A DNA stretch of 64,000 bases from a virus (taxonomy: Duplodnaviria > Heunggongvirae > Uroviricota > Caudoviricetes): positions 81,241-145,240 of IMG/VR virus record IMGVR_UViG_3300028832_000098. One strand, written 5' to 3'. Of the stretch, positions 1-40,417 are shown piece by piece. The position numbers and the translations under genes are program-made. The stretch's first letter is position 1. The number at the start of each line of letters is the position of its first letter. The notes below the pieces were generated by a model. It was not told the origin of the DNA, did not search any database, and was given only the letters and a program-made list of their open reading frames with translations.

Positions 1-62
1 ATAATTTTTAGCAAGAAAATCCTAAGGTCTTTAGCCTTTGGAATGAATCGTACTAACCTTTG

Positions 63-200
63 TTATTATAAGTTTTTCTTATATATTTATTTTTTTTGAA
101 AATTCCTAAAAAATTATGCGTAATACCTCATTACCGTACCTTCATTAGTTTTCAGATTTTTTATGTCGACATCTACTTCCATACACACTTCTTTTTCCCA
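63..200. repeat. Copy 1 of a ~138-bp near-identical direct repeat (copy 2 at 20230..20368). It holds a remnant encoding the last 22 aa of a 20282..20662 paralogue plus the intergenic sequence that precedes the protease-scaffold start in copy 2.
   Basis: Direct comparison shows 4 mismatches in 138 bp. All 4 fall at third-codon positions of the minus-strand reading frame (identical peptide MEVDVDIKNLKTNEGTVMRYYA*). Homology stops abruptly at position 200. Confidence 0.85.
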
Positions 201-238
201 GATTCTTTATATATTTTCTAATAGTATCTTGATTTGCT

Positions 239-520
239 TTACCTATAGAACAAAGTATCCATCACTCCAAAATGTATGTTCTTTCCAAAATTCTTTTTAA
301 GAAAGTTGTAATAATTCAAACACAGATAATGGACACTATCTTGTTTGAGTTTTCTTACAATCGAAGTGACTGAAATATTTGGTGGATATGATATAAGAAG
401 ATGTATATTGCCTTTGTCTATCTCCATAACATCAATATCGAAATCAGAAGTTTGTAAAATTTTTGAAACAATTGTTTTACGACTATATCCAGTCTGTATT
501 GTAATAATTGTTTTCTGTAT
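239..520 (-). pseudogene. tnpA: Decayed IS200/IS605 TnpA (Y1 HuH transposase) remnant, divergent from tnpB
   Basis: Minus-frame translation ...TGYSRKTIVSKILQTSDFDIDVMEIDKGNIHLLISYPPNISVTSIVRKLKQDS... aligns to the TnpA core (YRRKVLV...DHIHIL..PP..SV). The first His of the HuH motif is replaced (NIH), there is an internal deletion, no in-frame ATG at the N-terminus, and the frame ends before the catalytic Tyr helix. Confidence 0.55.
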
Positions 521-649
521 TTACAAACAAATATTAAATGACATCTCAAGTAATATTTGTGCCTGTTTTTTGAAGTATAATTATTTAGAATAATTTTACA
601 AAAATAAAAGTTTTTTGTAAATTTATAAATATAGAAAGTTATAGTTACT

Positions 650-1846
650 GTGAAAACGATTTATAAGACATATAAGTTTAGAATGTATCCAAATACGGAA
701 CAAGTAGAGTTGTTAGGTAAGTATTTTGGATGCACTCGCTTCGTCTATAATTATTTTCTCAACGAACGTATGGAGCAATATAAAGCTACACAAAAGTCTG
801 ATAATTACTATGACCAAGCTAAGAAACTAACTCTATTAAAGAAGCATGAAGAATTTGTCTGGTTAAATGAGATTAACAGTCAAACCTTACAACATAGTTT
901 GAGACATCTTGAATCTGCATATCTTAACTTCTTTAGAGGAAATGCGAAGTTTCCAAGATTCAAATCAAGGAAAGACAGAAACTCTTTTGTAGTGCCACAA
1001 TTTTGTTCTGTTGTTGGCAATTCTATATCATTACCAAAATTCAAGTCTAATATAAAAATAAAGAAACATCAAGAAATATCAGGGAATGTACGTTCTATGA
1101 CAGTATCTAAAGATTGCGATGGAAAATATTATGTTGCTATTCTTACAGAACAGTTATATGAACCAATACAAAAATCTAATAAATCTGTCGGAATTGATTT
1201 AGGATTAAAAGACTTTGTTATTACGTCAGATGGAAAAGTTTACAAAAATCATAGATATACAAAGAAATATGAAAGAAAATTAAGTAAAGCACAGAGGCAT
1301 CTTTCTCGTAAGCAAAAAGACAGCCGTTCTTTTGAAAACCAAAGAAGAAAAGTTGTCAAGATTCATAAGAAAATTTCAAATTCAAGAAATGATGTATTAC
1401 ACAAGGTATCAACAGAACTTGTCAGAAACTATGACATAATCTGTTGTGAGAACCTTAACGTAAAAGGAATGATTAAGAACCATAAACTTGCAAAGCATAT
1501 TGCTGATGTCAGTTGGGGAACATTCGTAAACTATCTTGAATACAAGTGTGAAAGGGAAGACAAGACTTTAGTGAAGATTAACAGATATTTTCCAAGCTCA
1601 CAGACTTGTAGTGACTGTGGATATATCAATCAATCTATCAAAGACTTGGGTGTACGAGAATGGACTTGTCCTAAATGTGGTAAACACCACAATAGGGACT
1701 TAAATGCTGCTATCAATATCCTTAGAGAAGGATTAACAACTCTATCGGCAGGGACTGTCGATTACACAGGTGGAGACGATGTAAGACTTGCTTGCAAGCA
1801 ATTGTCTGCGAAGCCTGAAGCCCACAAATCTTTAGTTTGTGAGTAG
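650..1846 (+). CDS. tnpB: TnpB / IS200-IS605 OrfB family RNA-guided nuclease (RuvC-like domain plus zinc finger)
   Basis: 398 aa. RuvC-I GIDLGLKDF, RuvC-II IICCENLN, zinc finger CSDCG...CPKCG, RuvC-III HHNRDLNAAINI. The 3' end overlaps convergently by 15 nt with 1832..2551, and its ωRNA would be expected across 1700-2000. Confidence 0.9.
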   Translation: MKTIYKTYKFRMYPNTEQVELLGKYFGCTRFVYNYFLNERMEQYKATQKSDNYYDQAKKLTLLKKHEEFVWLNEINSQTLQHSLRHLESAYLNFFRGNAKFPRFKSRKDRNSFVVPQFCSVVGNSISLPKFKSNIKIKKHQEISGNVRSMTVSKDCDGKYYVAILTEQLYEPIQKSNKSVGIDLGLKDFVITSDGKVYKNHRYTKKYERKLSKAQRHLSRKQKDSRSFENQRRKVVKIHKKISNSRNDVLHKVSTELVRNYDIICCENLNVKGMIKNHKLAKHIADVSWGTFVNYLEYKCEREDKTLVKINRYFPSSQTCSDCGYINQSIKDLGVREWTCPKCGKHHNRDLNAAINILREGLTTLSAGTVDYTGGDDVRLACKQLSAKPEAHKSLVCE

Positions 1847-2551
1847 TTCATAAATCCAATGATAGCCAGATTTATCAAGTATGAATGCTATGTTCAAAAC
1901 GGTATTCAAAGCACAGTATTCTATCTCTGACTCTTCAGGCTTGTTGCCGAATAAATGTGGAAGCATCTCATCGGTATTGACGATTTTAACTGTAGAACCG
2001 AAATAATCATCCTGTATGCTGTAGTCATTATTCGCAAATTCGTCATAATGAGTTATTTCCATAAGCTCGTCGGCATTCTCCTCTTCATCGCATCTATACG
2101 CGAATTCATAGTTACCAAGCTCTACACCATTCTTAGAACTCTCATTGATAAACTGGCTGTAAGTAAGTAGCTTTGAGCTACCCTCGGTAAAAAGCCTGTC
2201 ATATACGACTTTCACCTTTTCAAGTTCGTCGACAGTAAACTTGAAGATGATATTGACGTACATCTCATCTTTCGTAACATCAACTTGCTCTTTATAATCT
2301 TGCAGAGCAAATACTCCGAATATACTCTGAGCGGCATTATACGCGTCAGACTTGATTTGCTTCAAATCATAATATTCCCGTTGAGGGTCTTCGTGATAAG
2401 ACAAAGTAATCGTCAGGACATCTGACTTGAAGCTGTATGTTTTCTTCGTATAGTAACCAACGATATTCTCAAGGCCTATCGCATCAGATACGACCTTACT
2501 AAGCTCGTCGAGAATATCTTTCATATTTCTGTCATTTATTTTCATAATCAT
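1832..2551 (-). CDS. hypothetical protein
   Basis: 239-aa ORF with no recognisable motifs; its 3' end overlaps the tnpB stop. Confidence 0.4.
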   Translation of the reverse strand: MIMKINDRNMKDILDELSKVVSDAIGLENIVGYYTKKTYSFKSDVLTITLSYHEDPQREYYDLKQIKSDAYNAAQSIFGVFALQDYKEQVDVTKDEMYVNIIFKFTVDELEKVKVVYDRLFTEGSSKLLTYSQFINESSKNGVELGNYEFAYRCDEEENADELMEITHYDEFANNDYSIQDDYFGSTVKIVNTDEMLPHLFGNKPEESEIEYCALNTVLNIAFILDKSGYHWIYELLTN

Positions 2552-3243
2552 AGTTGTTGTTTTAAAATGTAATTAACGGCATCTTTAATAACTTTGCTGG
2601 ATTCATCATACAAATAATCAGTATCATAAAATCCGCCAGTAACAGCATGTACTTCGATATTATAGGCATACTCAGTTTTGGAGAATATGAGAACCCCATT
2701 ATATCTTCCGTTATATGTAATAAGAATCGAGTCTGTCTTATATATCTTAGCTTCATACTTGGCTCTGCCTATATTAAACATTTCAACAAATCTACTGACG
2801 ATATTCAGATATTCAGGCAGCAAATCCTTGATTTCAGGCATTGACTTCATACTTGATTTTTTCTTCTTGTCTTCATCTATGACATTCTGAAGCCATTCAA
2901 GCAATATCTTATACATCTCGTCAGACATCAGTCTTAGTTTGCTTTTATCGGCTACATTTATAATTGTCGTTACGTACTGCAAGCCGTTTTCAAGACGTAT
3001 CATCGCATATATCGGATGCCAATCTTGTTCAGGGTATAACATTACAGACACAACTTTATCGACAGGCTCCAAAAGATTTTTGTCCTTCAGCATTGTCTGC
3101 AGTTCCTCGACCTCTTTTGTTATGACAGAACCATAGGAATCACTTCCGTATTCATCCATCATATTTTCAAGGCTGCTGTCATATTCTTTACGTATGTCTT
3201 TTCCTTCTTTAAGGAACTGATTATATGTCTTTAATTTTTTCAT
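2548..3243 (-). CDS. hypothetical protein with CTS-like N-terminus (MKKLKTYNQFLKEG)
   Basis: 231-aa ORF. The N-terminal peptide matches the family motif M-x-K-L-K-T-[FY]-x-x-F-[IL]-x-E. A conserved leader ACATAAAATTTTTAATGAT lies directly upstream of the ATG. Confidence 0.5.
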   Translation of the reverse strand: MKKLKTYNQFLKEGKDIRKEYDSSLENMMDEYGSDSYGSVITKEVEELQTMLKDKNLLEPVDKVVSVMLYPEQDWHPIYAMIRLENGLQYVTTIINVADKSKLRLMSDEMYKILLEWLQNVIDEDKKKKSSMKSMPEIKDLLPEYLNIVSRFVEMFNIGRAKYEAKIYKTDSILITYNGRYNGVLIFSKTEYAYNIEVHAVTGGFYDTDYLYDESSKVIKDAVNYILKQQL

Positions 3244-3261
3244 ATCATTAAAAATTTTATG

Positions 3262-5169
3262 TTATGCTTCTCCGTATGTTTTCACCTCAACACCAAGAGC
3301 GGCTGCTTTCTTCATTTTTCCGGATGTCGAAGACATATCGTCTGTAAACAGGATTTTACATTGCTTCCAGTCTGATGTCTCTATATATTCAGGATGCGCC
3401 GCAAGGAAAGCTGCCTTGGTAACATATCCGAATTCTTTCGGACTTCCTGTCATAATCACAGGTATCGCCGTCGACGCAGCGGCTGCTTCCGGAGCCATAT
3501 TAACTTTGAACAAATTCGCATACCCAATAATAGTCTGGTATTCCTGAGAATTCTCATCAAGAAGCCATCTCTTGACTTCACCAGGCACGCCTATGAGATG
3601 ATTTGACTTGTCGCCCTTGATAAACTTGGCACAGACATCGGCAGCTACCTTGCCGCACAGACGGAACTGCAGGGCAAGTATGATTTCATTAAGCGTCAGA
3701 GTCTTACGCCTTTCAGTAAGGGCATTTACGATATTCATTATCGATGTCCCTGTTCCGAAACGTTCCTTCATAAAAGCGATTGATTCATCTTTCATAAAGT
3801 CAAGGACATTCTCGATTTTTACATCCTCGCTTGTAAAGAACTCAGGCATAATCTTACGTATCGTCGCCTCTTTGAAATTTCTGATGTTTATCGCCTCAGC
3901 GCCTGCTATTACCTTTATGACAACTTTTTCTTCAGCAGACAAGTCAATCATAAGATGAGGTCCTTTAACGGTCACATTCTCGGTAGGAGCCATATTGTCG
4001 CCTCCGTCTCTTACGATTTCATACACAAAAGGAATTATATCGCCGGCAAGCGAAATCTTAATGATAGAACCAACTCCGACGTTATTGTCCTTAACATATC
4101 CGTAGTTATGCAATGACGCCTTGTTGATGTTCTTTCCGTCCATCTTTATCGTCTTGAACACAGCCTTCGGGAAAAGTTCTCCTGTCTTTCCAACATTCCA
4201 TTCTATCTCCGTGATTTCTGTCTCGAGGATACTTGGTTTGTATTTGATTGCGACGCAGTCGCTCGGACGCTGAACATCTTCCGTCTTGCGGTATTTCACT
4301 TCTGGTTTCAACACGAAGCCGTCAAGAGGGAATTTGTAATCCTTACGAACTTTCTCCATTTCTTCGTAAATCCTCGCGAATTCCATAGGACTGAGTTCTG
4401 ATTTCTTAAAGGTAAGCACATTGTATGCGCATATGTCATAGCCAGGAACCGTATTATAGTCAACCCATTGATATGAGCCTGACGGAGATACAAGCCTGAA
4501 GTCATACACAACTATTGACAAATCTTTCCTTATATCAAGCTGTTCCTGTTTTCCGTCCCATTTCTGACCGAACATGCCAGCAACGAATGCCCTTGTATTC
4601 GCGAATTTATCCTGATAGCCTGCGTTAAAGTCATTAAAGCTTATAAGAGCTTCTCCCCTTACTACGAGCTTCTTGCCTTTCTGCAGGAATTCCTTGTAAG
4701 GTATTTCGTCTACATAAGGACTCAGCCAGTGGCTTACATCCGTACCGTATTCACCATCGCCTCTTGTCGATATTCCTTCAACATTTCCTTCGTCATCGAA
4801 CACCACCTCAAAAGAACATCCGTCGAATTTCGGAGTTACCTCAATGATTCCATCGTCCGGAACATTTTGGAAATACTTGTTAAGGGTATCGATATATGAG
4901 TCAAAATGGGTTTGGCCGTCTGAACCTTCTTTTATCTGTATTTTCGAAAGGCTTCCCATTTTTATCGGATGCTTTACGGTATAATTATCAGAATGATGTG
5001 TACCTATATAGCCCTGATTTTCAAGACCAAGCTTTCTTTCGAGCTCATCAAATTCAGCGTCGCCCATAATGGGGTTGCCATTATAGTATGCGTCTTTCGC
5101 CTTATTGTACAGTTCAAGGTCCTCTTCCCTTGATTCATAAAATTGTTTGAATGTCTTTAAGTGTTCCAT
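3262..5169 (-). CDS. ligA: NAD-dependent DNA ligase (LigA-like) with CTS-like N-terminus (MEHLKTFKQFYES)
   Basis: Adenylation motif KFDGCS (KxDG), TRGDGEYGTDVS (compare LigA TRGDGTTGEDIT), and an N-terminal LigA-like AYYNGNPIMGDAEFDELERKL. The ORF track begins at an upstream TTG; the ATG at 5169 is the likelier start. Confidence 0.8.
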   Translation of the reverse strand: MEHLKTFKQFYESREEDLELYNKAKDAYYNGNPIMGDAEFDELERKLGLENQGYIGTHHSDNYTVKHPIKMGSLSKIQIKEGSDGQTHFDSYIDTLNKYFQNVPDDGIIEVTPKFDGCSFEVVFDDEGNVEGISTRGDGEYGTDVSHWLSPYVDEIPYKEFLQKGKKLVVRGEALISFNDFNAGYQDKFANTRAFVAGMFGQKWDGKQEQLDIRKDLSIVVYDFRLVSPSGSYQWVDYNTVPGYDICAYNVLTFKKSELSPMEFARIYEEMEKVRKDYKFPLDGFVLKPEVKYRKTEDVQRPSDCVAIKYKPSILETEITEIEWNVGKTGELFPKAVFKTIKMDGKNINKASLHNYGYVKDNNVGVGSIIKISLAGDIIPFVYEIVRDGGDNMAPTENVTVKGPHLMIDLSAEEKVVIKVIAGAEAINIRNFKEATIRKIMPEFFTSEDVKIENVLDFMKDESIAFMKERFGTGTSIMNIVNALTERRKTLTLNEIILALQFRLCGKVAADVCAKFIKGDKSNHLIGVPGEVKRWLLDENSQEYQTIIGYANLFKVNMAPEAAAASTAIPVIMTGSPKEFGYVTKAAFLAAHPEYIETSDWKQCKILFTDDMSSTSGKMKKAAALGVEVKTYGEA

Positions 5170-6891: not shown

Positions 6892-7740
6892 TTATTGTTT
6901 TATATCAGGTTTATATTCCTGCTTGATTGGACAATTAACGAACATATCCCTGCATATTACTTCTTTCGAAACATTCCAATTTGAAATATCTTGGTTGAAA
7001 GATTCAGTATAATGAAACATAGCTTCCATATCTTCTACATTTGAAACATCCCAGTTTCCAATTGGCTGATTAAAACATTTTGCAAAACTAAACATGCTTC
7101 TCATATTTTTTACATTTGAGACATCCCAGTTTTCAATTGGTTGATTGAACTTCTCTGCTCTATGGAACATAAAAGGCATATAATAGGCATTTGAAATATT
7201 CCAGTTTCCAATTGGCTGATTGAAGCTTTTTGCAGCACTAAACATACTTCTCATAATTTTGACATTTGAGACATCCCAGTTTTCAATAGATTGGTTGAAC
7301 TTTTCTGCAGCACTAAACATACTTCCCATATCCTCTACATTTGATACATTCCAGTTTCCAATAGGTTGATTGAAACTTTTTGCAGACATAAACATCATTC
7401 CCATATCTTTTACATTTGAAACCTCCCAGTTTTCAATAGATTGATTGAACTTTTCTGCACTACTGAACATTCTTCGCATGTTCGTCACATTACTTGTATC
7501 CCATTGTGATATATCACCATTAAAACTTCTGGCAAATGCAAATAAATGGCTCATATCAGTAATCCTTGATGTGTCAATATCATTAAAGTCACCTTCAAAA
7601 CCTCTCTCCTCTATAAGAGCTTCCATAAGCAATTTCAATTCATCTCTATCTTCAGGATAGTACTTTCCATTATTTTTTCTGAAAGCATTCAAATCAATAC
7701 TTTCTTTGATGAAGCTTTTGAATGTCTTTAATTTTTCCAT
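6892..7740 (-). CDS. DUF285-type (Mycoplasma/Bacteroidota surface 26-residue repeat) protein with CTS-like N-terminus (MEKLKTFKSFIKES)
   Basis: About 8 tandem repeats of FNQPIxNW[DN]VSNVxxMxxMFxxAxxFNQ; preceded by the TTGTTTTTTATATAAAAGC motif. Confidence 0.6.
   Translation of the reverse strand: MEKLKTFKSFIKESIDLNAFRKNNGKYYPEDRDELKLLMEALIEERGFEGDFNDIDTSRITDMSHLFAFARSFNGDISQWDTSNVTNMRRMFSSAEKFNQSIENWEVSNVKDMGMMFMSAKSFNQPIGNWNVSNVEDMGSMFSAAEKFNQSIENWDVSNVKIMRSMFSAAKSFNQPIGNWNISNAYYMPFMFHRAEKFNQPIENWDVSNVKNMRSMFSFAKCFNQPIGNWDVSNVEDMEAMFHYTESFNQDISNWNVSKEVICRDMFVNCPIKQEYKPDIKQ
6930..7578. repeat. Coding tandem repeats (~78 bp units) encoding DUF285 repeats
   Basis: Visible periodic repetition of ...cccagttttcaat[ag]g[ac]ttg[ag]ttgaa... 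units. Confidence 0.7.
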
Positions 7741-15479: not shown

Positions 15480-15524
15480 AACTGCAATTTTGTTTTTATA
15501 TAAAAAACAACGTTTTACCAGAAA

Positions 15525-15557
15525 TCCATAAAAGGTCTTCTTTTTACGGAAGACCTT
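15525..15557 (-). terminator. Intrinsic terminator hairpin (AAGGTCTTC-N8-GAAGACCTT) plus T-run
   Basis: Perfect 9-bp stem; on the minus strand followed by TTTTATGG; 28 nt after the 15585 stop. Confidence 0.55.
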
Positions 15558-15584
15558 CTTTGGTTATTTCTAACTGTGTAGACT

Positions 15585-15803
15585 CTATTGATTACAGTTT
15601 ACCATCTCAGCATGCTTGCATTGTATATTCTTACATTGATTACTACAATTTTGCGCATTTCCAATAGTTATAAAAGCTATAACTGCAAATGTAATAAAAA
15701 TACTTAATACACAGATTATAAATCCAACTCCACCCACAAAAATACTTTTTTTGTTAGACTTAGAAATACATGCTCTATCCGTCTTAAAAATTCTTGTTAC
15801 CAT
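15585..15803 (-). CDS. small Cys-rich membrane protein
   Basis: TM segment IFVGGVGFIICVLSIFITFAVIAFITI and a C-terminal CSNQCKNIQCK. Shares leader and first ~10 codons (MVTRIFKTDR) with 15854..16339. Confidence 0.35.
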   Translation of the reverse strand: MVTRIFKTDRACISKSNKKSIFVGGVGFIICVLSIFITFAVIAFITIGNAQNCSNQCKNIQCKHAEMVNCNQ

Positions 15804-15853
15804 TTTTGTTTTGTTTTTATTTGTTTGTACTTGTTTGTAATAAAAGCAACATT

Positions 15854-16339
15854 CTATATTGCATTGATAGTCATTCCAGTATTATATAAATTTGTAAGCT
15901 TCTCTTGTCTTTCATCAACTTGCTTTATCCATTGAAGCATTTTCTCAGCACCTTCTTTTTTGGTATATGCGACAACATTCATAAATCCTCCATATCCAAA
16001 GTCATCGCCTGAATGTCCGTATGCAATCGTATCGCAACAGCCTTCTATAACAGGATGGTTACATATATCCCATCTTATAAATGGTGGACATTTTAAAGCA
16101 TCCCAGACATCTATTCCGAATATTGTCTTTTTCTGTTGTTCCTTACCGAAGACATTCACCCATTTTTCTGTCTGCAGAATAGCATAAATAGGTCCTTCCA
16201 ATAATGCCTCTATTAAAGGAAGGGAACCAGTCTCACCAATACGTATACCCAATACGTTTTCTATTTCCTTTGGATTTCCATTCAATTCAACAATTGAATA
16301 CTCAAATGTTCTGCCTGTCTTAAAAATACTTGTTTCCAT
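15854..16339 (-). CDS. hypothetical protein (possible SMI1/KNR4-SUKH-like fold)
   Basis: Start trimmed to METSIFKTGR at 16339, because the track ORF overlapped the MCP. C-terminal ...AYGHSGDDFGYGGF pattern resembles SUKH-1 (weak). Confidence 0.4.
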   Translation of the reverse strand: METSIFKTGRTFEYSIVELNGNPKEIENVLGIRIGETGSLPLIEALLEGPIYAILQTEKWVNVFGKEQQKKTIFGIDVWDALKCPPFIRWDICNHPVIEGCCDTIAYGHSGDDFGYGGFMNVVAYTKKEGAEKMLQWIKQVDERQEKLTNLYNTGMTINAI

Positions 16340-16403
16340 TTTTGTTTTGTTTTTAGTTGTTTGTACTTGTTTGTATATAAAAAACAACATTTTACAAGAA
16401 ACC

Positions 16404-16441
16404 ACAATAAAAAAGAAGGTCTTCTTTTTACGGAAGACCTT
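16404..16441 (-). terminator. Intrinsic terminator after the major capsid gene (same hairpin as 15532..15557)
   Basis: AAGGTCTTCCGTAAAAAGAAGACCTT followed by CTTTTTTATTG on the minus strand, 26 nt after the MCP stop. Confidence 0.65.
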
Positions 16442-16466
16442 CTTGGTTGTTTCTAACTGTGTTAGA

Positions 16467-18272: not shown

Positions 18273-20228
18273 TTAGAATCCGTATTTCAAACGTCTTTTT
18301 ATCTCTTCAGCGACAGAAGCCTGTACTTTTCCTTCATTACGGACGTTCCTGTTCTGATTCCTCAAAGATTCCGAAAGATATTTTTTCGTATCTTGACTGC
18401 TTACGCTTTCCGTAAGATTCCTTGTCTTCCAGAAACGAACAGCTGCGTCTACACTGCCGATAATATACAATTTGCTTTCGTTAAGGATTTCTTTCTTACG
18501 GTTGTCAGAAAGAGCGCTCCAAGATTCTTTCAAGTAGTCAGGCATAAATTGAATAAGTTTTTCTGCCTCTGTAACAGATTTCTGTTCATTTATGGCTTGA
18601 CTCTGTTGTTCCATCTTATTGTTTGTATCCTTAATAGACGAAGCAATAGAATTTACAGATTCTACAAGGTTTTGAAGTTGAGTGTCTTCAGTACTGCGCT
18701 GTTTACCTTCAACCATCATCTTGATGTCTTCTATAGATTTGTCAGCAGCTTCAACTATGCTCTGCATTTTACCGCTAAGCTTTTTGTTGATTTTAGTCTG
18801 AGACTCAGAGATATATTCTGTATACTTCTGAAGCATCTCAATTTTTTCATTAAGCTGCTTGTTCTTCTGAAGAACCTTATCGAAACTTTCAGAAAGATAT
18901 TTTGTATATCCTTCAAGCATTTCAGCCGTTACCGTGTTCTTTTCAAGATGTTCAGACAAATATGCTGTATAACGTTCCATATCCTTTGATGTGACAACGT
19001 CTTTATTCATCTTTTTAAGATGTTCTGACAGATAGCCTGTATATTTTTCCATAGCATCGCTTGTAACTACGTTTTTATTCATAGCTGCAAGATGTTCAGA
19101 AAGATATGCAGTATACTTTTCTACGTCTTCGCTTGTAACGACACCTTTTTTCAATTTATTCAAGTATTCAGACAAATACTTAGTGTATTTATCCATGTCG
19201 CGTCTTGTTACGACATCTTGAGGGTTGCCTAACTTCTGTTCCATATAATAATTATTAAAGTTGATTCCACTTACAAAGAAATATGTCTTTCCGTCTTGTA
19301 CGGTTGGACCGTCAGTAATGTTCGCACCAATATTGTTCAGACATTGTTCAACAGCGTTATTGATTATGCCTGTGAATTCACCTGTTACATTCTTTCCGAA
19401 TTCAACCTCAACATGGTCGTTTACGAAATTAACTATTGCTGTATCAGAATTTGATTCAACAGAACAGATACCCATATCGCTGTCGACTGTTATGTCCATT
19501 TTGCCAGGATTCATACCGAGCGCCTTACGGAATTCACCTATAATAGACTTGCCGTCTATTTTCGGTTTTTCATTTCCGCTTTCAGGTTCTTTCTGACCTT
19601 CATCCTGCAATTCGTACAAATCGGCGCCATCGAAAGACTCGAGTATTACACGGCTCTTCATTTTGGCATTCTTCTGTGAACTCAAAGCATTAACGGCATT
19701 TATAAGAGCGTCAGAACCCGCGCCCTTGCTTTCGTTAACTGCATGGAGAACTGCATTCTCAAAACCTGGTTCAGCAACAAGGTCATAAGTTATAAGTTCT
19801 TCGACAACGACATGATTGTCAGGTGTCAAAGTACCGATAGCCCTTGAAGATATATGAAGAGGCACTTTATTTTCTATAAGAGTCTTCGCGATTCTTCCTG
19901 AAGGAGTATTTAATAATTTGATACGACCCTTTATAGAATCTGTCTTTTGGTCATAGCTTAGACTTTCAACTATATGAGAAACGTTCTGATAAGACACATA
20001 CCTCATATTAGCGGGATGTTCAAGCTCACCGAGAAGGTCATGATTCTTAATCTTTTCCGTAAGAGCACCAAGCTTCTCAAGGAAATTCTTAGAGTCATAT
20101 ATCCTGTTATTACGATTCTTCACGTTAAACGTCGTGAAGCATCCTTCAAGAACAATATCGCCGCCGTCCGCAGAACTTGAGCAGACACCGTCACTTAAAC
20201 TCTCAACGATATATTTCTTATTTTCCAT
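18273..20228 (-). CDS. Prohead core protease (T4 gp21-like) fused to a scaffold-like coiled-coil domain with tandem repeats
   Basis: N-terminal LGELEHPANM...TPSGRIAKTLIENKVPLHISSRAIG matches gp21 LGEHD...TPAGQLVESLLKEGVLLEASSRAWA. The C-terminal ~350 aa are coiled-coil with 6 repeats of VVTS[ED]D[VM]EKYT[AG]YLSEHL...MNK. Confidence 0.75.
   Translation of the reverse strand: MENKKYIVESLSDGVCSSSADGGDIVLEGCFTTFNVKNRNNRIYDSKNFLEKLGALTEKIKNHDLLGELEHPANMRYVSYQNVSHIVESLSYDQKTDSIKGRIKLLNTPSGRIAKTLIENKVPLHISSRAIGTLTPDNHVVVEELITYDLVAEPGFENAVLHAVNESKGAGSDALINAVNALSSQKNAKMKSRVILESFDGADLYELQDEGQKEPESGNEKPKIDGKSIIGEFRKALGMNPGKMDITVDSDMGICSVESNSDTAIVNFVNDHVEVEFGKNVTGEFTGIINNAVEQCLNNIGANITDGPTVQDGKTYFFVSGINFNNYYMEQKLGNPQDVVTRRDMDKYTKYLSEYLNKLKKGVVTSEDVEKYTAYLSEHLAAMNKNVVTSDAMEKYTGYLSEHLKKMNKDVVTSKDMERYTAYLSEHLEKNTVTAEMLEGYTKYLSESFDKVLQKNKQLNEKIEMLQKYTEYISESQTKINKKLSGKMQSIVEAADKSIEDIKMMVEGKQRSTEDTQLQNLVESVNSIASSIKDTNNKMEQQSQAINEQKSVTEAEKLIQFMPDYLKESWSALSDNRKKEILNESKLYIIGSVDAAVRFWKTRNLTESVSSQDTKKYLSESLRNQNRNVRNEGKVQASVAEEIKRRLKYGF
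18820..19195. repeat. Coding tandem repeats (~72 bp) encoding the YTxYLSEHL scaffold repeats
   Basis: Repeated ...gtaacgacatc...ttttccat...cttgt... units visible in the DNA. Confidence 0.7.
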
Positions 20229-20229
20229 T

Positions 20230-20368
20230 GTTATTATAAGTTTTTCTTATATATTTATTTTTTTTGAAAATTCCTAAAAAATTATGCGTAATACCTCATC
20301 ACCGTACCTTCATTAGTTTTCAGGTTTTTGATGTCGACATCCACTTCCATACACACTTCTTTTTCCCA
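20230..20368. repeat. Copy 2 of the 138-bp direct repeat (see 63..200); spans the 3' end of 20282..20662 and the protease-gene upstream region
   Basis: Near-identical to 63..200. Confidence 0.85.
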
Positions 20369-20662
20369 TGTCAGAAATTTTACCGACAATTCGTATGTGA
20401 CATTTTCAGTCGTATTTACAAAACGTTTCATCTGGTCGTTGATGTCAGCCTCGACCATATCTTCATTATAATTTGTCTTAAACAGGTAGTCGCTCAGATT
20501 GCATCCGTAATCAGGCATATTCAGCAATTCACCTCTATTTGTAAAAAACAAGACATTCATCTGTTGGATTAACTCCGCGATTTCGGAGTTAACCTCAACA
20601 GCTGAATTATCTTCAGTCACCAAATAATTAGGAGGCAATATGTTGAAATCCCTTAATCCCAT
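20282..20662 (-). CDS. hypothetical protein (126 aa) between the sheath and protease genes
   Basis: ORF; its last 29 codons are duplicated at 116..200. Confidence 0.45.
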   Translation of the reverse strand: MGLRDFNILPPNYLVTEDNSAVEVNSEIAELIQQMNVLFFTNRGELLNMPDYGCNLSDYLFKTNYNEDMVEADINDQMKRFVNTTENVTYELSVKFLTWEKEVCMEVDVDIKNLKTNEGTVMRYYA

Positions 20663-23226: not shown

Positions 23227-23255
23227 GTTATTAAAATTTTATGTTATTCTAATTC

Positions 23256-23263
23256 TATTTATA
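23256..23263 (-). promoter_or_regulatory. T4-type late promoter -10 element TATAAATA (minus strand) upstream of the sheath gene
   Basis: The exact octamer sits in the conserved context AAAATTATAAATAGAAT, shared with 24768..24775. Confidence 0.45.
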
Positions 23264-24161
23264 ATTTTAGAGAAAAGTCCTTAAAAGAACCTAATGATAA
23301 TCCTTCGCAGCAGCTGAATAAAACTTTATTGTCAAGCATTTTTCTCGCTATGAATTCACGTAATGAAAGAAGTGAGTCATTATTATAATCTACGATACCA
23401 GGACCGTCTTTCTTATATTCAGTCGTATCTGTTATAATACATTTATCATATTTAGACATTGATTCTAAATCTGATTCTCCTACATGAAAACTTTTATAAT
23501 ACTGATTCTTATTATACTTGTCAGCATGTTTATAGCCGTTATTCCAGAATTCTATAACTTTATTCCAGAAATGTCTACTACAAAAGTATGCACTTATTTT
23601 ATTTCCACTGATACCTATAACAAATCTCCATTTAATAAACTGCCCTTTATTCATTGCATGACGTACAACTAAATCAAAAGGACTATCTTCGGATTCTTCC
23701 GTATTTTGTGTAGAATATCTTAAAGGAAATTCTGCTTCTCCATTATCAAAAGTTTCTTTAACTTCTATATTAGCCTGCAAAGAGTCAGGAGCTGTTCTAA
23801 GATGTATAATATCTATATCAGAATAATTCGTACGAAATACATCGTCAACAGATATAATCTCAATAGGCGTAATTGCTTCACCGGCTTTGGACCTGCCAGC
23901 AAGACGGTTTATCCTGTAAAACAGCTCGTCTCTTGTCAAGTTTTTACTATTAGCAAAAGCTTCACGTTTGATAAGAAATGACATAATATCACCTTCTTCT
24001 TTACCTTTCTTAGCAGCGTCCGAAGAAGAATGGTCTGACTGCGACAATGGCAGACAGACCATAACATATTCAATACCATCAATTTCACAGAAACCAGTAA
24101 GTTTTTTACATAAAACTTTGCTGTCTCTTTCCGACCGTGAAAACCTATTTTTTTGCTCCAT
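23259..24161 (-). CDS. hypothetical protein (possible PD-(D/E)xK-like motif, weak)
   Basis: 300-aa ORF; the only weak motif is IDIIHL...EVK. Confidence 0.35.
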   Translation of the reverse strand: MEQKNRFSRSERDSKVLCKKLTGFCEIDGIEYVMVCLPLSQSDHSSSDAAKKGKEEGDIMSFLIKREAFANSKNLTRDELFYRINRLAGRSKAGEAITPIEIISVDDVFRTNYSDIDIIHLRTAPDSLQANIEVKETFDNGEAEFPLRYSTQNTEESEDSPFDLVVRHAMNKGQFIKWRFVIGISGNKISAYFCSRHFWNKVIEFWNNGYKHADKYNKNQYYKSFHVGESDLESMSKYDKCIITDTTEYKKDGPGIVDYNNDSLLSLREFIARKMLDNKVLFSCCEGLSLGSFKDFSLKL

Positions 24162-28502: not shown

Positions 28503-28527
28503 CTTTGAAAATTTTTGTTATTCATTA

Positions 28528-28535
28528 TATTTATA
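28528..28535 (-). promoter_or_regulatory. T4-type late promoter TATAAATA
   Basis: TCTATAAATATAATG... upstream of the ATG at 28502, just downstream of the terminator hairpin. Confidence 0.45.
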
Positions 28536-28543
28536 GACGACGG

Positions 28544-37952: not shown

Positions 37953-38450
37953 TTACAATATATTTATGAGCAGCAGAATTACCGCCAAAATACTTACGCC
38001 TGCTATCGAGCATCTGATTATTCTCTTCATAAGTGCATAAGTCAGGTATGATTCCCAGTCAGGTTCATAATCGGAATTAGGAACGAAGACCATATCATAT
38101 CTTGCTATAATGGTATTGTCGTCATAATCCTTGTCATTCTCGTCGAGCATGAGAAAATACAGGTTGTCATAAGTGACATCCACATACTCGTCAAGCTTTA
38201 CGACTTTCAGCACGGCTGCGAGAGTGTTGATATTCTCCTCATACGACCTTGTGACTACCTCCTTCATATAAGGAACACGGTTTTTGGCGGTCGCTATGTT
38301 TATAGCCACAGTACACTCCCTCATTATTCTTCCGTCAGGAAGCATCTCAAAACCATATTTTGCAAGGCTCCCTTCTGCGCGTTTCCAAATTCTGCGTACG
38401 GTATTATACGTACGATATACCCTGAATGCTTTCTTTATAGATTCAACCAT
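37953..38450 (-). CDS. hypothetical protein with C-terminal TM helix
   Basis: ...CSIAGVSILAVILLLINIL. Confidence 0.4.
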   Translation of the reverse strand: MVESIKKAFRVYRTYNTVRRIWKRAEGSLAKYGFEMLPDGRIMRECTVAINIATAKNRVPYMKEVVTRSYEENINTLAAVLKVVKLDEYVDVTYDNLYFLMLDENDKDYDDNTIIARYDMVFVPNSDYEPDWESYLTYALMKRIIRCSIAGVSILAVILLLINIL

Positions 38451-39057: not shown

Positions 39058-39157
39058 AATATCAGTTTCTTTTATTTATGTCATTTCTGTGAACTACCTA
39101 CAAACTAAAGAATTCTATGTTCTAAATCCTATTAAAATTATTATCAATTATACGAAT

Positions 39158-40417
39158 TTATTTATAAAGTTTAGGAAGTCCGTATAGATTCTTAAACTTT
39201 ACAGGCTGGAACAACCAGCCTCTATTGACTATCTCACCTATGTAAGACTCGTCAACTACTTTTCTCATGATGTTCAGTGCTCCGTTGACATCTGCATTCA
39301 GCACTTTTCCTACGGACGACTTGAACAGTCCACGTTTGATGCGCTTCCCTAAATATGCTGCGTGTTTGCATATTTCCTCAAAAGAAAGAGCATCACACTT
39401 GCTCGTGTAACTTTCCTCATTTGTCTTGAAGACTATGCCAACTTTTTCACATTTGTACCGAAGATAATTCAGAAACCTTCTATAAGGAATGTAAACAAAA
39501 GTCTGGTTATTCTTGTGTCCAAGCTCAATGGAGTCCTTCCATTGTTCGTTGTAACCTACAACTAAGTTTCCGATTCCTTGTTTTACTAAATTATCTACAA
39601 TATGTTTACTTACCTTGTGAAATAAATCCTGTAATTTCTTATCCCTCCTTTCGTATAGTTTCGTTATCTTTCTGCTTGTATTTTTGTCTTGACTTTTCTT
39701 TACTGCCGATTTAAGTCTGGACAACTCCTTGTTGAATCCTTGGTTTATTGATTTAATCTGACATCCCGAATAAATAATCGGTTTAGTAAAGTCATTCACT
39801 AAAGTTACGAAATTAGCTACTCCTAAGTCAATTGAAGCATATCTTTCAGAATCTAATTTCAAATGAGTGTCTTGTACAGTATAAACTATCTCGCATTCAA
39901 GAACCTCCGCACGTCTCTTTGGATTTATACGTACTTGATTAAAGCTTTTCAAAAGCTCTCCATATTTTTCATATTGTGGTATATTTATGTAAGTGTTTTT
40001 GTCAAAGTACACTCTTCCGTTTTTAATAGAACAACTTTGATTTGGAAAAGTTATTTGACGGTACAACCCACGATTCCATTCAGGTGGTTGTGGAACTCCT
40101 TTGAATTTGTTAGGTTGTAATTTATACTCCTTCAACGCACTAAAATATCCCTTGTAATTCTTCTCCACTTGCATCAAGTTCTGCTGGGCAACCTGTGCTT
40201 TCAGTAACCTGTAGTTTATATCACCGTTAAGATTGACTTTTGTCTTTAGGATTTCATTGAGTCTCTTATAAGACAAAAATCCTTCACCTTTTATAAAAGA
40301 TTGTCTTTCTTCATAGATTGCCTGATTGTATAAACATTTGGAAACGGAGCACAACTGTACAAGTTTACGTCTTGTCTCAGCATTAGTATGTACTATGAAT
40401 TTATAAACGTATCGCAT
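39158..40417 (-). CDS. tnpB: TnpB / IS200-IS605 OrfB family RNA-guided nuclease (second, divergent copy; tnpB-only element)
   Basis: 419 aa. RuvC-I SIDLGVANF, RuvC-III LNADVNGALNIMRK. The canonical CxxC...CxxC zinc finger is not evident (SKCDALSFEEICKH). No tnpA remnant seen nearby. Confidence 0.85.
   Translation of the reverse strand: MRYVYKFIVHTNAETRRKLVQLCSVSKCLYNQAIYEERQSFIKGEGFLSYKRLNEILKTKVNLNGDINYRLLKAQVAQQNLMQVEKNYKGYFSALKEYKLQPNKFKGVPQPPEWNRGLYRQITFPNQSCSIKNGRVYFDKNTYINIPQYEKYGELLKSFNQVRINPKRRAEVLECEIVYTVQDTHLKLDSERYASIDLGVANFVTLVNDFTKPIIYSGCQIKSINQGFNKELSRLKSAVKKSQDKNTSRKITKLYERRDKKLQDLFHKVSKHIVDNLVKQGIGNLVVGYNEQWKDSIELGHKNNQTFVYIPYRRFLNYLRYKCEKVGIVFKTNEESYTSKCDALSFEEICKHAAYLGKRIKRGLFKSSVGKVLNADVNGALNIMRKVVDESYIGEIVNRGWLFQPVKFKNLYGLPKLYK

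What the first reader, a model, noticed from the sequence alone, without database searches (positions are those of the whole stretch)
239..1990. IS605-type element with intact TnpB and a decayed divergent TnpA inside a T4-like phage
650..1846 encodes a full-length TnpB with an intact RuvC triad and zinc finger. 239..~520 on the opposite strand retains recognisable TnpA (Y1 HuH) sequence (YSRKTIV...GNIHLLISYPP), but the first His of HuH is lost and there is an internal deletion and C-terminal truncation. This is the common trajectory in which TnpB and its ωRNA persist after the transposase is lost. The TnpB C-terminus overlaps the neighbouring phage gene by 15 nt. The left boundary coincides with the end of the 138-bp repeat at position 200.
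Basis: partly seen in the sequence, partly recalled or inferred. Interest (0 to 1): 0.6.

Follow-up and report, generated by a model that had tools for sequence, protein, structure and literature searches.

The report
Phage insertion sequence with dead transposase
A small ISDra2-like jumping gene (IS200/IS605 family) sits in a large T4-related rumen phage with its transposase gene wrecked but its RNA-guided nuclease TnpB and guide-RNA scaffold intact, which is a known kind of element and mainly useful as a natural test case for nuclease-driven "homing" between phages.

Summary
The core of the finding is confirmed, but the boundaries given are wrong.

- **Extent.** The element spans window 1..1850, not 239..1990.
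- **TnpB.** The gene (650..1846) is full length. It has the RuvC residues D183/E267/D350 and a CxxC..CxxC zinc finger. Its nearest solved relative is ISDra2 TnpB (E 2e-88).
- **Guide RNA.** The ωRNA scaffold lies inside the 3' end of tnpB (about 1720-1850). It is strongly supported by covariation in 32 relatives. The element ends at ..GTAGTTCA|1850, so the guide is 1851-1866.
- **Transposase.** The divergent tnpA (201..586, minus strand) is dead. It has lost its start codon, carries at least three frameshifts and a stop, and has HuH changed to NuH. It is not C-terminally truncated.
- **Internal insertion.** The last three tnpA codons and the left-end hairpin lie at 1-60. They are separated from the rest by a 140-bp insertion (61-200). 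That insertion copies a phage late-promoter region found at 20229-20368.
- **TAM.** The target motif, read from 13 relatives, is TTTAT. In this window it lies just off the left edge.
- **Relatives.** Six close copies all keep an uninterrupted TnpB (dN/dS 0.04-0.09). Each has lost tnpA in a different way.

This is an ordinary new member of a known family. TnpA-independent homing between phages is plausible but untested.

The parts
1..60 (+). Left end (LE) of the IS. It contains the subterminal hairpin at 20-42 (TCC-T-AAGGT / loop CTTTA / GCCTT-T-GGA as folded; the shared motif TCTTTAG lies at 28-34) and, on the minus strand, the last codons and stop of tnpA (..AAGGTTAG, 53-60). The outer end of LE coincides with window position 1, give or take 2 nt.
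   Evidence: Window 5-60 is 87-91% identical to the LE of L023/L087, L086, L088 and L089, where it abuts the position equal to window 201. LE alignment of 11 relatives shows a conserved hairpin with compensatory changes, and the flanks diverge 5' of TTTAT. As DNA the hairpin folds at -4.6 kcal/mol here against -11.1 in L023, because of one mismatch.
61..200 (-). 140-bp insertion of phage DNA inside the IS. It is a copy of 20229-20368, which comprises the last 28 codons and stop of the gp25-like baseplate gene plus the 53-nt intergenic region up to the base before the ATG of the head-protease gene. It carries a late-promoter-like AATAAATA (reverse complement of 84-91) pointing left.
   Evidence: Repeat family D2; sequences; 136/140 bases identical, and all 4 differences are synonymous third positions. 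The segment is absent from all five relatives that have this LE. The ENA contig k141_448414 independently contains the 200/201 junction.
201..586 (-). tnpA pseudogene (Y1 HuH transposase). Start codon lost (ATG to AAA at about 584-586). 1-nt deletions in A/T runs near 455 and 296. A 4-nt deletion near 250 creates a stop. HuH His changed to Asn. The catalytic-Tyr region IRKYIKN is still readable at 201-221.
   Evidence: Pfam Y1_Tnp on two ORF pieces; three-frame translations; alignment with L023 and with intact relatives L015, L025, L028 and others.
587..649 (.). Divergent control region. It has the inverted repeat TTTACAAAA (595-603) / TTTTGTAAA (613-621), conserved in all six close copies. 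A perfect T4-type late promoter box TATAAATA lies at 624-631, 18 nt before the tnpB start.
   Evidence: Sequence; conservation in L023, L002, L089, L090 and L091; the motif ATAAATA lies upstream of 20 of 64 ORFs in the window.
650..1846 (+). tnpB, intact, 398 codons, GTG start, TAG stop. RuvC residues D183/E267/D350. Zinc finger C320, C323, C340, C343.
   Evidence: (phrog_506, E 2e-136). dN/dS is 0.04-0.09 against five close copies.
1720..1850 (+). ωRNA scaffold (5 helices), overlapping the last ~43 codons of tnpB and ending at the IS right end ..GAGTAGTTCA. The last helix (1823-1841, loop region containing TCTTTAG) is also the RE hairpin for TnpA. It has one C·A mismatch here (G to A at 1842).
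   Evidence: Alignment A3 of 32 relatives: 31 pairs, 97% of cells paired, 18 pairs with compensatory change, 0/500 shuffles reach the score, slid controls give 28-42% paired. dS drops to 0.09-0.36 in codons 351-398 against 0.4-1.8 elsewhere. There is no Rfam match.
1851..1866 (+). Predicted 16-nt guide of the ωRNA (TAAATCCAATGATAGC). This is phage DNA immediately 3' of the right end.
   Evidence: Homology among more than 30 relatives stops exactly after ..TAGTTCA. The guide assignment is by analogy with ISDra2 (PMC8612924). The only exact match in the window is the site itself.
1832..2551 (-). Neighbouring phage gene of unknown function. Its last 6 codons (YELLTN) and its stop are supplied by the IS right end.
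   Evidence: ORF list; IS boundary at 1850. If the unseen left flank ends in TTTAT, the native gene ended ..HWI-TAA with the stop spanning the insertion point (inference). An identical gene-IS junction is seen in 4 datasets.
20229..20368 (-). Resident phage copy of the 140-bp segment: the 3' end of the gp25-like gene 20282..20662 plus the late-promoter region of the head-protease gene 18273..20228.
   Evidence: GPW_gp25, phrog_207.

Best explanation
**What it is.** Window 1..1850 is one copy of an ISDra2-like IS200/IS605-family insertion sequence. The order is LE, tnpA (reversed), tnpB, RE.

**Where it landed.** It inserted into a large T4-related rumen phage at the stop codon of a minus-strand gene. 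By inference, this was 3' of a TTTAT target that lies just off the window.

**What has decayed.** The transposase gene is dead. Both end hairpins are slightly damaged, and a 140-bp piece of phage DNA has been inserted between LE and tnpA. The copy can no longer move by itself.

**What is kept.** tnpB and the ωRNA encoded in its 3' end are intact and under purifying selection.

**Most likely mode of action (inferred, about 50%).**
1. TnpB is made late in infection from the TATAAATA box at 624-631.
2. It binds an ωRNA of about 150 nt whose last 16 nt are TAAATCCAATGATAGC.
3. It cuts any phage genome carrying TTTAT followed by that sequence, that is, the same locus without the IS in a co-infecting relative.
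4. Recombinational repair, which is very active in T4-type phages, copies the element and its flanks into the cut genome, or the rival genome is destroyed.

The resident copy is immune, because ..GTTCA rather than TTTAT precedes the target.

**Shown here:** anatomy, boundaries, catalytic residues, ωRNA structure, TAM in relatives, selection on tnpB.

**Inferred:** TAM at this copy, expression, cleavage and homing.
For: - **Domains and catalytic residues:**
- **Boundaries:** the right end is defined by the end of homology in more than 30 independent insertions. The left end is defined by five relatives in which window 5-60 abuts window 201.
- **End hairpins:** LE and RE hairpins share the motif TCTTTAG and show compensatory changes.
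- **TAM:** TTTAT lies immediately 5' of LE in 13 insertions with unrelated flanks.
- **ωRNA covariation:** 97% of cells paired, 18 compensatory pairs, 0/500 shuffles, slid controls about 40%.
- **Selection on tnpB:** dN/dS 0.04-0.09 with dS 0.4-1.8. Synonymous change is suppressed where the ωRNA overlaps.
- **Differential decay:** at least 6 disabling lesions in about 0.4 kb of tnpA against none in 1.2 kb of tnpB. Five further copies have an uninterrupted 398-codon tnpB and independently lost tnpA.
- **Late promoter:** the motif is enriched upstream of genes and present before tnpB.
- **Published mechanism for the family:** PMC8612924; PMC10055086 and PMC13565253. The last reports TnpA-independent, TnpB-dependent spread in plasmids and calls phage homing theoretically possible.
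Against: - No IS-free allele of this locus, or of the L023 and L002 loci, was found. A homing substrate is therefore not demonstrated.
- The TAM and left flank of this copy are off the window.
- Frame-corrected tnpA still shows dN/dS 0.08 against L023. Most of the purifying selection measured on tnpB dates from when tnpA was alive, so only the lesion-count argument speaks to the period after tnpA loss.
- The terminal ωRNA helix has one C·A mismatch in this copy.
- No expression or cleavage data exist.
Confidence: 0.75

Rival explanations
1. The element is a non-autonomous but still mobile IS. It keeps LE and RE and is moved by TnpA supplied in trans from other copies in the host or in co-infecting phages. 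TnpB is kept for ordinary 'restorative' homing after excision, as in bacteria.
For: LE and RE are both present. L002 is a clean LE-tnpB-RE derivative without tnpA, sitting at a different locus next to TTTAT. Close copies occupy unrelated flanks. tnpA was under selection until recently. Intact tnpA exists in 60%-identity relatives.
Against: In this copy the LE hairpin has a mismatch (-4.6 against -11.1 kcal/mol), the RE hairpin has a mismatch, and 140 bp have been inserted next to LE. L090 and L091 have no LE at all yet keep tnpB intact. No intact tnpA of this subfamily is present in the window.
Confidence: 0.2
2. This is a dying IS with no current function. TnpB is intact only because the insertion and the loss of tnpA are recent.
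For: tnpA loss is recent relative to divergence from L023. Both end hairpins and one ωRNA pair are already damaged. The tnpA frameshifts lie in mutable A/T runs.
Against: There are at least 6 independent disabling lesions in 0.4 kb of tnpA and none in 1.2 kb of AT-rich tnpB. At equal rates, about 15 or more would be expected in tnpB. The same asymmetry holds in five other copies with different tnpA lesions. Synonymous sites are specifically frozen over the ωRNA.
Confidence: 0.1
3. TnpB has been domesticated by the phage for something other than homing, for example RNA-guided attack on competing phages or host DNA, or guide-dependent regulation.
For: A phage late-promoter box lies upstream of tnpB in 5 of 6 close copies but not in the 60%-identity relatives. 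L090 and L091 lack LE, so they are fixed genes. A second, distant tnpB sits in the same window.
Against: The catalytic triad is intact, so this is not a TldR-like repressor. The guide is simply the adjacent flank, as in any IS copy, and has no other match in the 64-kb window. ATAAATA is a common word in AT-rich DNA, present in 18 of 149 upstream regions overall.
Confidence: 0.1
4. The 140-bp segment at 61-200, and hence the apparent internal insertion, is an assembly chimera at a contig end.
For: The window starts at the LE outer end and the ENA contig starts at window 181, inside the segment. Both assemblies therefore break here. The segment is 97% identical to another part of the same genome.
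Against: A chimera would need two false joins (60/61 and 200/201) with no shared sequence to cause them. The 200/201 junction is present in the ENA contig. The copy differs from the resident one at 4 positions, so it is not a collapse of identical repeats.
Confidence: 0.1

Closest known systems
ISDra2 of Deinococcus radiodurans (IS200/IS605 family; TnpB structures 8h1j, 8exa, 8bf8)
   Same: The TnpB has the same domain order and aligns over residues 6-396 (E 2e-88), with conserved D/E/D and a zinc finger. The ORF runs almost to the right end, so an ωRNA of about 150 nt overlaps its 3' end and takes a ~16-nt guide from the flank (PMC8612924). The TAM is a T-rich pentanucleotide identical to the TnpA target.
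   Different: The TAM here is TTTAT, against TTGAT in ISDra2. tnpA is divergent from tnpB and is a pseudogene. The element is in a phage, and it carries a 140-bp internal insertion.
IS605/IS606-type organisation (Helicobacter pylori), from my own knowledge of the family
   Same: tnpA and tnpB are transcribed divergently between LE and RE. There are subterminal hairpins and no terminal inverted repeats. Intact relatives L015, L025, L028, L018, L012, L005 and L022 show this layout.
   Different: The sequence relationship to the H. pylori elements was not tested here. The TnpB is closest to ISDra2 among solved structures.
tnpB-only derivatives (IS1341-type) and other non-autonomous IS200/IS605 copies
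   Same: L002 is LE-tnpB-RE with tnpA cleanly deleted. L090 and L091 keep only the promoter, tnpB and RE. The window copy is on the same path.
   Different: The window copy still holds a recognisable, nearly full-length tnpA pseudogene.
Free-standing homing endonucleases of T-even phages (Seg, Mob) and 'transposon non-restorative homing' by TnpB in plasmids
   Same: The proposed mode of action is the same: cut the allele that lacks the element in a co-resident genome and be copied in by recombination (review PMC13565253; PMC11870625 listed).
   Different: Target recognition would be by RNA guide plus TAM, not by protein. It has not been shown for any phage, including this one.
TldR (nuclease-dead TnpB-like repressors)
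   Same: They descend from TnpB and can be fixed, non-mobile genes.
   Different: The RuvC triad is intact here, so this is not a TldR.

Membership tests
IS200/IS605 insertion sequence (IS605 group) | Y1 HuH transposase gene tnpA (Pfam Y1_Tnp) | tested here: met
   Present as a pseudogene. Pfam Y1_Tnp hits two ORF pieces. The full length is readable across three frames and aligns with intact relatives.
IS200/IS605 insertion sequence (IS605 group) | Subterminal hairpins at both ends, with no terminal inverted repeats | tested here: met
   LE hairpin at 20-42 and RE hairpin at 1823-1841 share the motif TCTTTAG. Stems covary across relatives. Each is weakened by one mismatch in this copy.
IS200/IS605 insertion sequence (IS605 group) | Insertion 3' of a fixed tetra- or pentanucleotide, without target duplication | tested here: inconclusive
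   TTTAT precedes LE in 13 relatives with unrelated flanks. For the window copy the flank lies off the window. No empty site was found to test for absence of duplication.
IS200/IS605 insertion sequence (IS605 group) | Copies at different genomic sites (mobility) | tested here: met
   This holds at family level. Close copies have unrelated flanks and different guides. This copy sits at one fixed site in 4 datasets.
TnpB / ωRNA (OMEGA) RNA-guided nuclease | RuvC D-E-D triad and zinc-ribbon (TNB) domain | tested here: met
   D183, E267 and D350 align with D191, E278 and D361 of ISDra2. C320/C323/C340/C343 form the zinc finger. D191 is catalytic according to PMC8612924.
TnpB / ωRNA (OMEGA) RNA-guided nuclease | Structured RNA encoded at the 3' end of tnpB up to the right end, followed by a flank-derived guide | tested here: met
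   A covarying 5-helix structure ends at the IS boundary. Synonymous change is suppressed over it. Transcription and processing were not tested.
TnpB / ωRNA (OMEGA) RNA-guided nuclease | TAM- and guide-dependent DNA cleavage | not testable with these tools
   This needs biochemistry or an interference assay.
TldR-type nuclease-dead TnpB derivative | Loss of RuvC catalytic residues or C-terminal truncation | tested here: not met
   All three catalytic residues and the full C-terminus are present.
T4-like (T4-superfamily) myovirus as host genome | T4-type portal, major head protein, prohead protease, sheath and gp25 baseplate genes, and TATAAATA late promoters | tested here: met
   PHROG/Pfam hits to portal, major head, head maturation protease, tail sheath and GPW_gp25. 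ATAAATA lies upstream of 20 of 64 ORFs. The similarity is distant: best portal identity is 37% to a huge phage and 30% to Lak phages, and there is no nucleotide match in INPHARED.

The most novel reading that the evidence does not exclude
In T4-related jumbo phages of rumen Bacteroidales, this IS clade has switched from TnpA-driven transposition to TnpA-independent, TnpB/ωRNA-driven homing (a gene drive between co-infecting phages). tnpB would be wired to the phage late promoter. The phage would in turn have patched the polar effect of the insertion by capturing a late-promoter cassette from a related phage inside the dead transposase end.
Probability: 0.25. Interest if true: 0.65.

Novelty: new member of a known kind. 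Interest (0 to 1): 0.33.

Why it matters
IS200/IS605 elements with TnpB are common, and TnpB genes in phage genomes have been reported before. The element itself is therefore not new.

Its value is as a clean natural case:
- Boundaries, TAM (TTTAT), guide and ωRNA structure are all defined.
- Six related copies each lost the transposase in a different way while keeping the nuclease.

A 2026 review still lists TnpB homing between phages as theoretical. This family offers concrete substrates to test it. It also offers a compact ISDra2-like TnpB with a TTTAT TAM.

Tried and rejected
- **Rfam.** A scan of 1-4000 at E up to 10 found no ωRNA family, only a chance snoRNA hit.
- **Nucleotide search.** Megablast of 1-4000 against INPHARED found nothing. 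Distant blastn gave only other tnpB genes.
- **IS-free allele, via the neighbouring gene.** It has no relatives in IMG/VR. In the 5.8-billion-protein set there were only identical copies plus one chimeric scaffold, L085, which fuses phage sequence to a GC-rich ribosomal protein gene.
- **IS-free allele, by exact pattern.** Scans for the predicted empty sites of the window, L023 and L002 found nothing.
- **Left flank.** An exact scan for the LE/insert junction in IMG/VR found nothing. A look-up of the 62-aa tnpA fragment returned only the ENA contig, which starts at window 181.
- **Shared frameshift in the window and L023.** I first read '..GKRSVYGSRCRHKK' as the tnpA C-terminus. It is the other frame of the inserted gp25-like fragment. 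I also first thought the frameshift at FLKK|FW was shared with L023. Comparison with L089 shows a 1-nt deletion here and a 4-nt deletion in L023, so the events are independent.
- **Relatives' flanks.** Close copies share no flanking genes with this window, so they give no empty-site comparison.
- **The 140-bp repeat as the element boundary or as a mobile element of its own.** Rejected. It is the 3' end of a conserved baseplate gene plus its downstream promoter region.
Full report
**What is at the coordinates**

The ORF at 650..1846 (+) encodes 398 aa from a GTG start. It matches Pfam HTH_OrfB_IS605, OrfB_IS605 and Cas12f1-like_TNB well above their cut-offs. It also matches PHROG 506 'transposase' at E 2e-136.

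Against solved structures, the best natural match is ISDra2 TnpB (8h1j, 8bf8/8exa), at E 2e-88 over residues 6-396. Reading that alignment, and checking residues:
- The RuvC triad is D183 (IDLG), E267 (CCENL) and D350 (NRDLNAA).
- The zinc finger is C320/C323/C340/C343.
- These align with D191/E278/D361 of ISDra2. D191 was shown to be catalytic (PMC8612924).

On the minus strand, ORF pieces 239..427 and 418..549 hit Pfam Y1_Tnp, at profile positions 46-92 and 6-36. The HuH motif reads GNIHLL.

**The transposase gene is frameshifted, not truncated**

Translating all three minus-strand frames and aligning with L023 and with intact relatives shows an almost full-length tnpA from about 586 down to 201. 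Its lesions are:
- The start codon is lost (ATG in L023, AAA here).
- There are single-base deletions in A/T runs near 455 and 296.
- A 4-nt deletion near 250 creates a stop.
- The first His of HuH is changed to Asn.

The catalytic-tyrosine region (..DTIRKYIKN) is still readable at 201-221.

**The left boundary is not at 200**

In L023 (IMG/VR UViG_3300021431_000080; TnpB 87% identical), the sequence equal to window 6-60 lies directly next to the sequence equal to window 201. There tnpA ends ..YIENQG* across that junction. The same junction is seen in L086, L088 and L089.

Window 61-200 is therefore a 140-bp insertion inside the element, three codons before the tnpA stop. Window 1-60 is the element's left end.

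**Evidence for the left end (LE)**
- It carries a hairpin at 20-42. Its loop region contains TCTTTAG, the same motif as in the right-end hairpin (CACAAA-TCTTTAG-TTTGTG, 1823-1841).
- In 11 relatives the LE stems differ but stay complementary.
- Immediately 5' of LE, 13 insertions with unrelated flanks all have TTTAT. This is the expected target and TAM, analogous to TTGAT of ISDra2.
- In relatives LE has 19-21 nt between TTTAT and the hairpin. The window has exactly 19 nt before its hairpin.

So the window begins at the outer end of the element, give or take 2 nt. The TAM and left flank are off the window.

**The right end and the ωRNA**

Alignment with L002 and L023, then with ten and then 32 relatives, shows homology stopping exactly after ..GGGTAGTTCA. 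In the window this is ..GAGTAGTTCA, ending at 1850, 4 nt after the TAG stop. Beyond it every sequence is different.

The last ~130 nt before this point form five helices in the consensus fold. Counting pairs gave:

| Measure | Result |
|---|---|
| Cells forming standard pairs | 97% |
| Pairs with compensatory double changes | 18 of 31 |
| Shuffles reaching the covariation score | 0 of 500 |
| Cells paired after sliding partners by 1-3 columns | 28-42% |

Synonymous divergence between close copies falls from 0.4-1.8 in codons 2-350 to 0.09-0.36 in codons 351-398, where RNA and protein overlap. This is the ISDra2 arrangement: an RNA of about 150 nt from the tnpB 3' end and RE, plus about 16 nt of flank.

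The predicted guide is 1851-1866, TAAATCCAATGATAGC. Its only exact match in the window is itself. The window copy has one C·A mismatch in the terminal helix (G to A at 1842). No Rfam family matches.

**The neighbouring gene**

ORF 1832..2551 (-) does overlap tnpB by 15 nt. This happens because it reads into the IS. Its last six codons (YELLTN) and its stop are right-end sequence.

If the unseen left flank ends in TTTAT, the uninterrupted gene ended ..HWI-TAA with the stop codon spanning the insertion point. The insertion would then only add six residues. This is an inference.

The identical gene-IS junction occurs in four datasets: ERZ27256849, SRR8543131, JGI 3300037512 and SRR11060108. No IS-free version was found.

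**Relatives and selection**

Six close copies each have an uninterrupted 398-codon tnpB, with pairwise dN/dS 0.04-0.09. They are the window, L023/L087, L002, L089, and the Paludibacteraceae rumen MAG contigs L090 and L091, at 86-90% aa identity.

None of the six has a working tnpA, and the lesions differ:

| Copy | State of tnpA |
|---|---|
| Window | Multiple lesions plus the 140-bp insertion |
| L023 | Two frameshifts in A runs |
| L002 | Clean deletion; LE fused to the tnpB promoter, still next to TTTAT |
| L089 | LE plus 113 bp of the tnpA 3' end plus an inverted RE fragment |
| L090, L091 | No LE at all |

(Sources.)

More distant relatives (about 60% aa) have intact divergent tnpA.

One caution applies. 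Frame-corrected tnpA of the window against L023 still gives dS 1.22, dN 0.10 and ω 0.08. tnpA was therefore functional for most of their divergence, and its loss is recent and independent in each lineage.

The argument that tnpB is kept by selection after tnpA loss rests on the asymmetry of lesions: at least 6 in about 0.4 kb against 0 in 1.2 kb here, and the same direction in five other copies. It does not rest on dN/dS alone.

**The 140-bp insertion**

It equals 20229-20368. That segment is the last 28 codons and stop of a gp25-like baseplate gene (Pfam GPW_gp25; PHROG baseplate), plus the 53-nt spacer up to the base before the ATG of the head-protease gene.

The two copies differ at 4 of 140 positions. 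All four are synonymous third positions of the gp25-like frame. Neutral drift of a dead copy would not give this pattern. The donor was most likely the orthologous gene of a related phage, and the insertion is very recent.

The spacer carries AATAAATA. The word ATAAATA (mostly C/T-ATAAATA, the T4 late-promoter box) lies 20-35 nt upstream of 20 of 64 ORF starts. Those upstream regions hold about half of all 41 occurrences on both strands.

In the IS the captured box points left, through LE, toward whatever gene follows on the minus strand. A possible reading is that it restores late transcription downstream of the insertion. This cannot be checked without the left flank. An assembly artefact is unlikely but not excluded, since both available assemblies end in this region.

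**Expression**

A perfect TATAAATA lies at 624-631, 18 nt before the tnpB start. ATAAATA is also present upstream of tnpB in L023, L002, L089 and L090, but not in the 60%-identity relatives. This suggests late-phase expression in these phages. The word is common in AT-rich DNA, so the evidence is weak.

**The host genome**
- The matching ENA contig is 235.7 kb.
- The window encodes a portal, major head protein, prohead protease, tail sheath, gp25-like protein and NAD-dependent ligase.
- The portal is nearest to huge phages (37%) and Prevotella Lak phages (30%), then to classical T4-like phages.
- There is no nucleotide match in INPHARED.

'T4-like' is correct only in the broad sense. The closest tnpB copies in genomes are in rumen Paludibacteraceae MAG contigs, which points to a Bacteroidales host.

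**How it most likely works**

By homology with ISDra2, and with the homing role shown for IS605-family TnpB (PMC10055086), the TnpB-ωRNA complex should cut DNA carrying TTTAT followed by the 16-nt flank. That target is the IS-free allele.

With tnpA dead there is no excision to repair. The remaining selective role is cutting IS-free relatives during co-infection, and being copied in by recombination or excluding the rival. TnpA-independent, TnpB-dependent spread has been reported for plasmids, and the phage case is described as theoretically possible (PMC13565253).

I put about 50% on this mechanism and about 95% on the identity and anatomy of the element.

**Novelty**

TnpB genes in phage genomes are already on record (PHROG 506; cyanophage A-1(L) and Thermus Lalka phages). 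The decay of tnpA with retention of tnpB is a known trajectory. This is a new member of a known kind, of modest interest.

Noticed in passing
window 39090-40417 (-): A second, distant tnpB: ORF 39158..40417 (-), 419 aa, with Pfam OrfB_IS605 and Cas12f1-like_TNB and 23% identity to the first. Its right end on the minus strand..TTCTTTAGTTTGTAGGTAGTTCA| at about 39090, has the same terminal motif as the first element. The zinc-finger cysteines do not align, and no LE hairpin or tnpA is seen upstream.
   Followed up: partly
window, whole; e.g. 23250-23270, 37960-37975, 28525-28540, 624-631: The T4-type late promoter box (C/T)ATAAATA lies 20-35 nt upstream of 20 of 64 ORF starts. There are 41 occurrences of ATAAATA in all on both strands. 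A perfect TATAAATA lies 18 nt before tnpB.
   Followed up: partly
window 61-200 vs 20229-20368: The 4 differences between the two copies of the 140-bp segment are all synonymous third positions of the gp25-like frame. The 53-nt promoter spacer is identical. The donor therefore looks like an orthologous gene from a related phage rather than the resident copy.
   Followed up: yes
window 1 and 181: The window begins at the outer end of the IS left end (give or take 2 nt). The 235.7-kb ENA contig of the same phage begins at window 181, inside the 140-bp insertion. Two assemblies break in this region, and the cause is unknown.
   Followed up: partly
L089 5520-5960 (reverse strand): This is a composite relative. 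It reads LE, then 113 bp of the tnpA 3' end, then an inverted fragment of a right end/ωRNA (equal to window 1745-1850), then spacer, then tnpB. It looks like a nested or rearranged insertion.
   Followed up: no
window 6965-7545: Six tandem copies of a 75-nt unit (64-80% identical) lie inside ORF 6892..7740 (-), giving a 25-residue protein repeat.
   Followed up: no
window 15517-15560 and 16401-16444; 15770-15839 and 16306-16375: These are repeated intergenic blocks. They include a GC-rich hairpin (AAGGTCTTC..GAAGACCTT) followed by T's, which is terminator-like. They are duplicated about 0.5-0.9 kb apart.
   Followed up: no
window 595-621: The inverted repeat TTTACAAAA / TTTTGTAAA lies between tnpA and tnpB and is conserved in all six close copies. 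It may be an operator or a shared promoter element.
   Followed up: no
L085 (ENA scaffold TONG22-1..scaffold_70865): A 964-bp public scaffold fuses the first 84 codons of a 94%-identical homologue of the neighbouring phage gene to a GC-rich ribosomal protein L5/S14 operon. This is an assembly chimera.
   Followed up: yes
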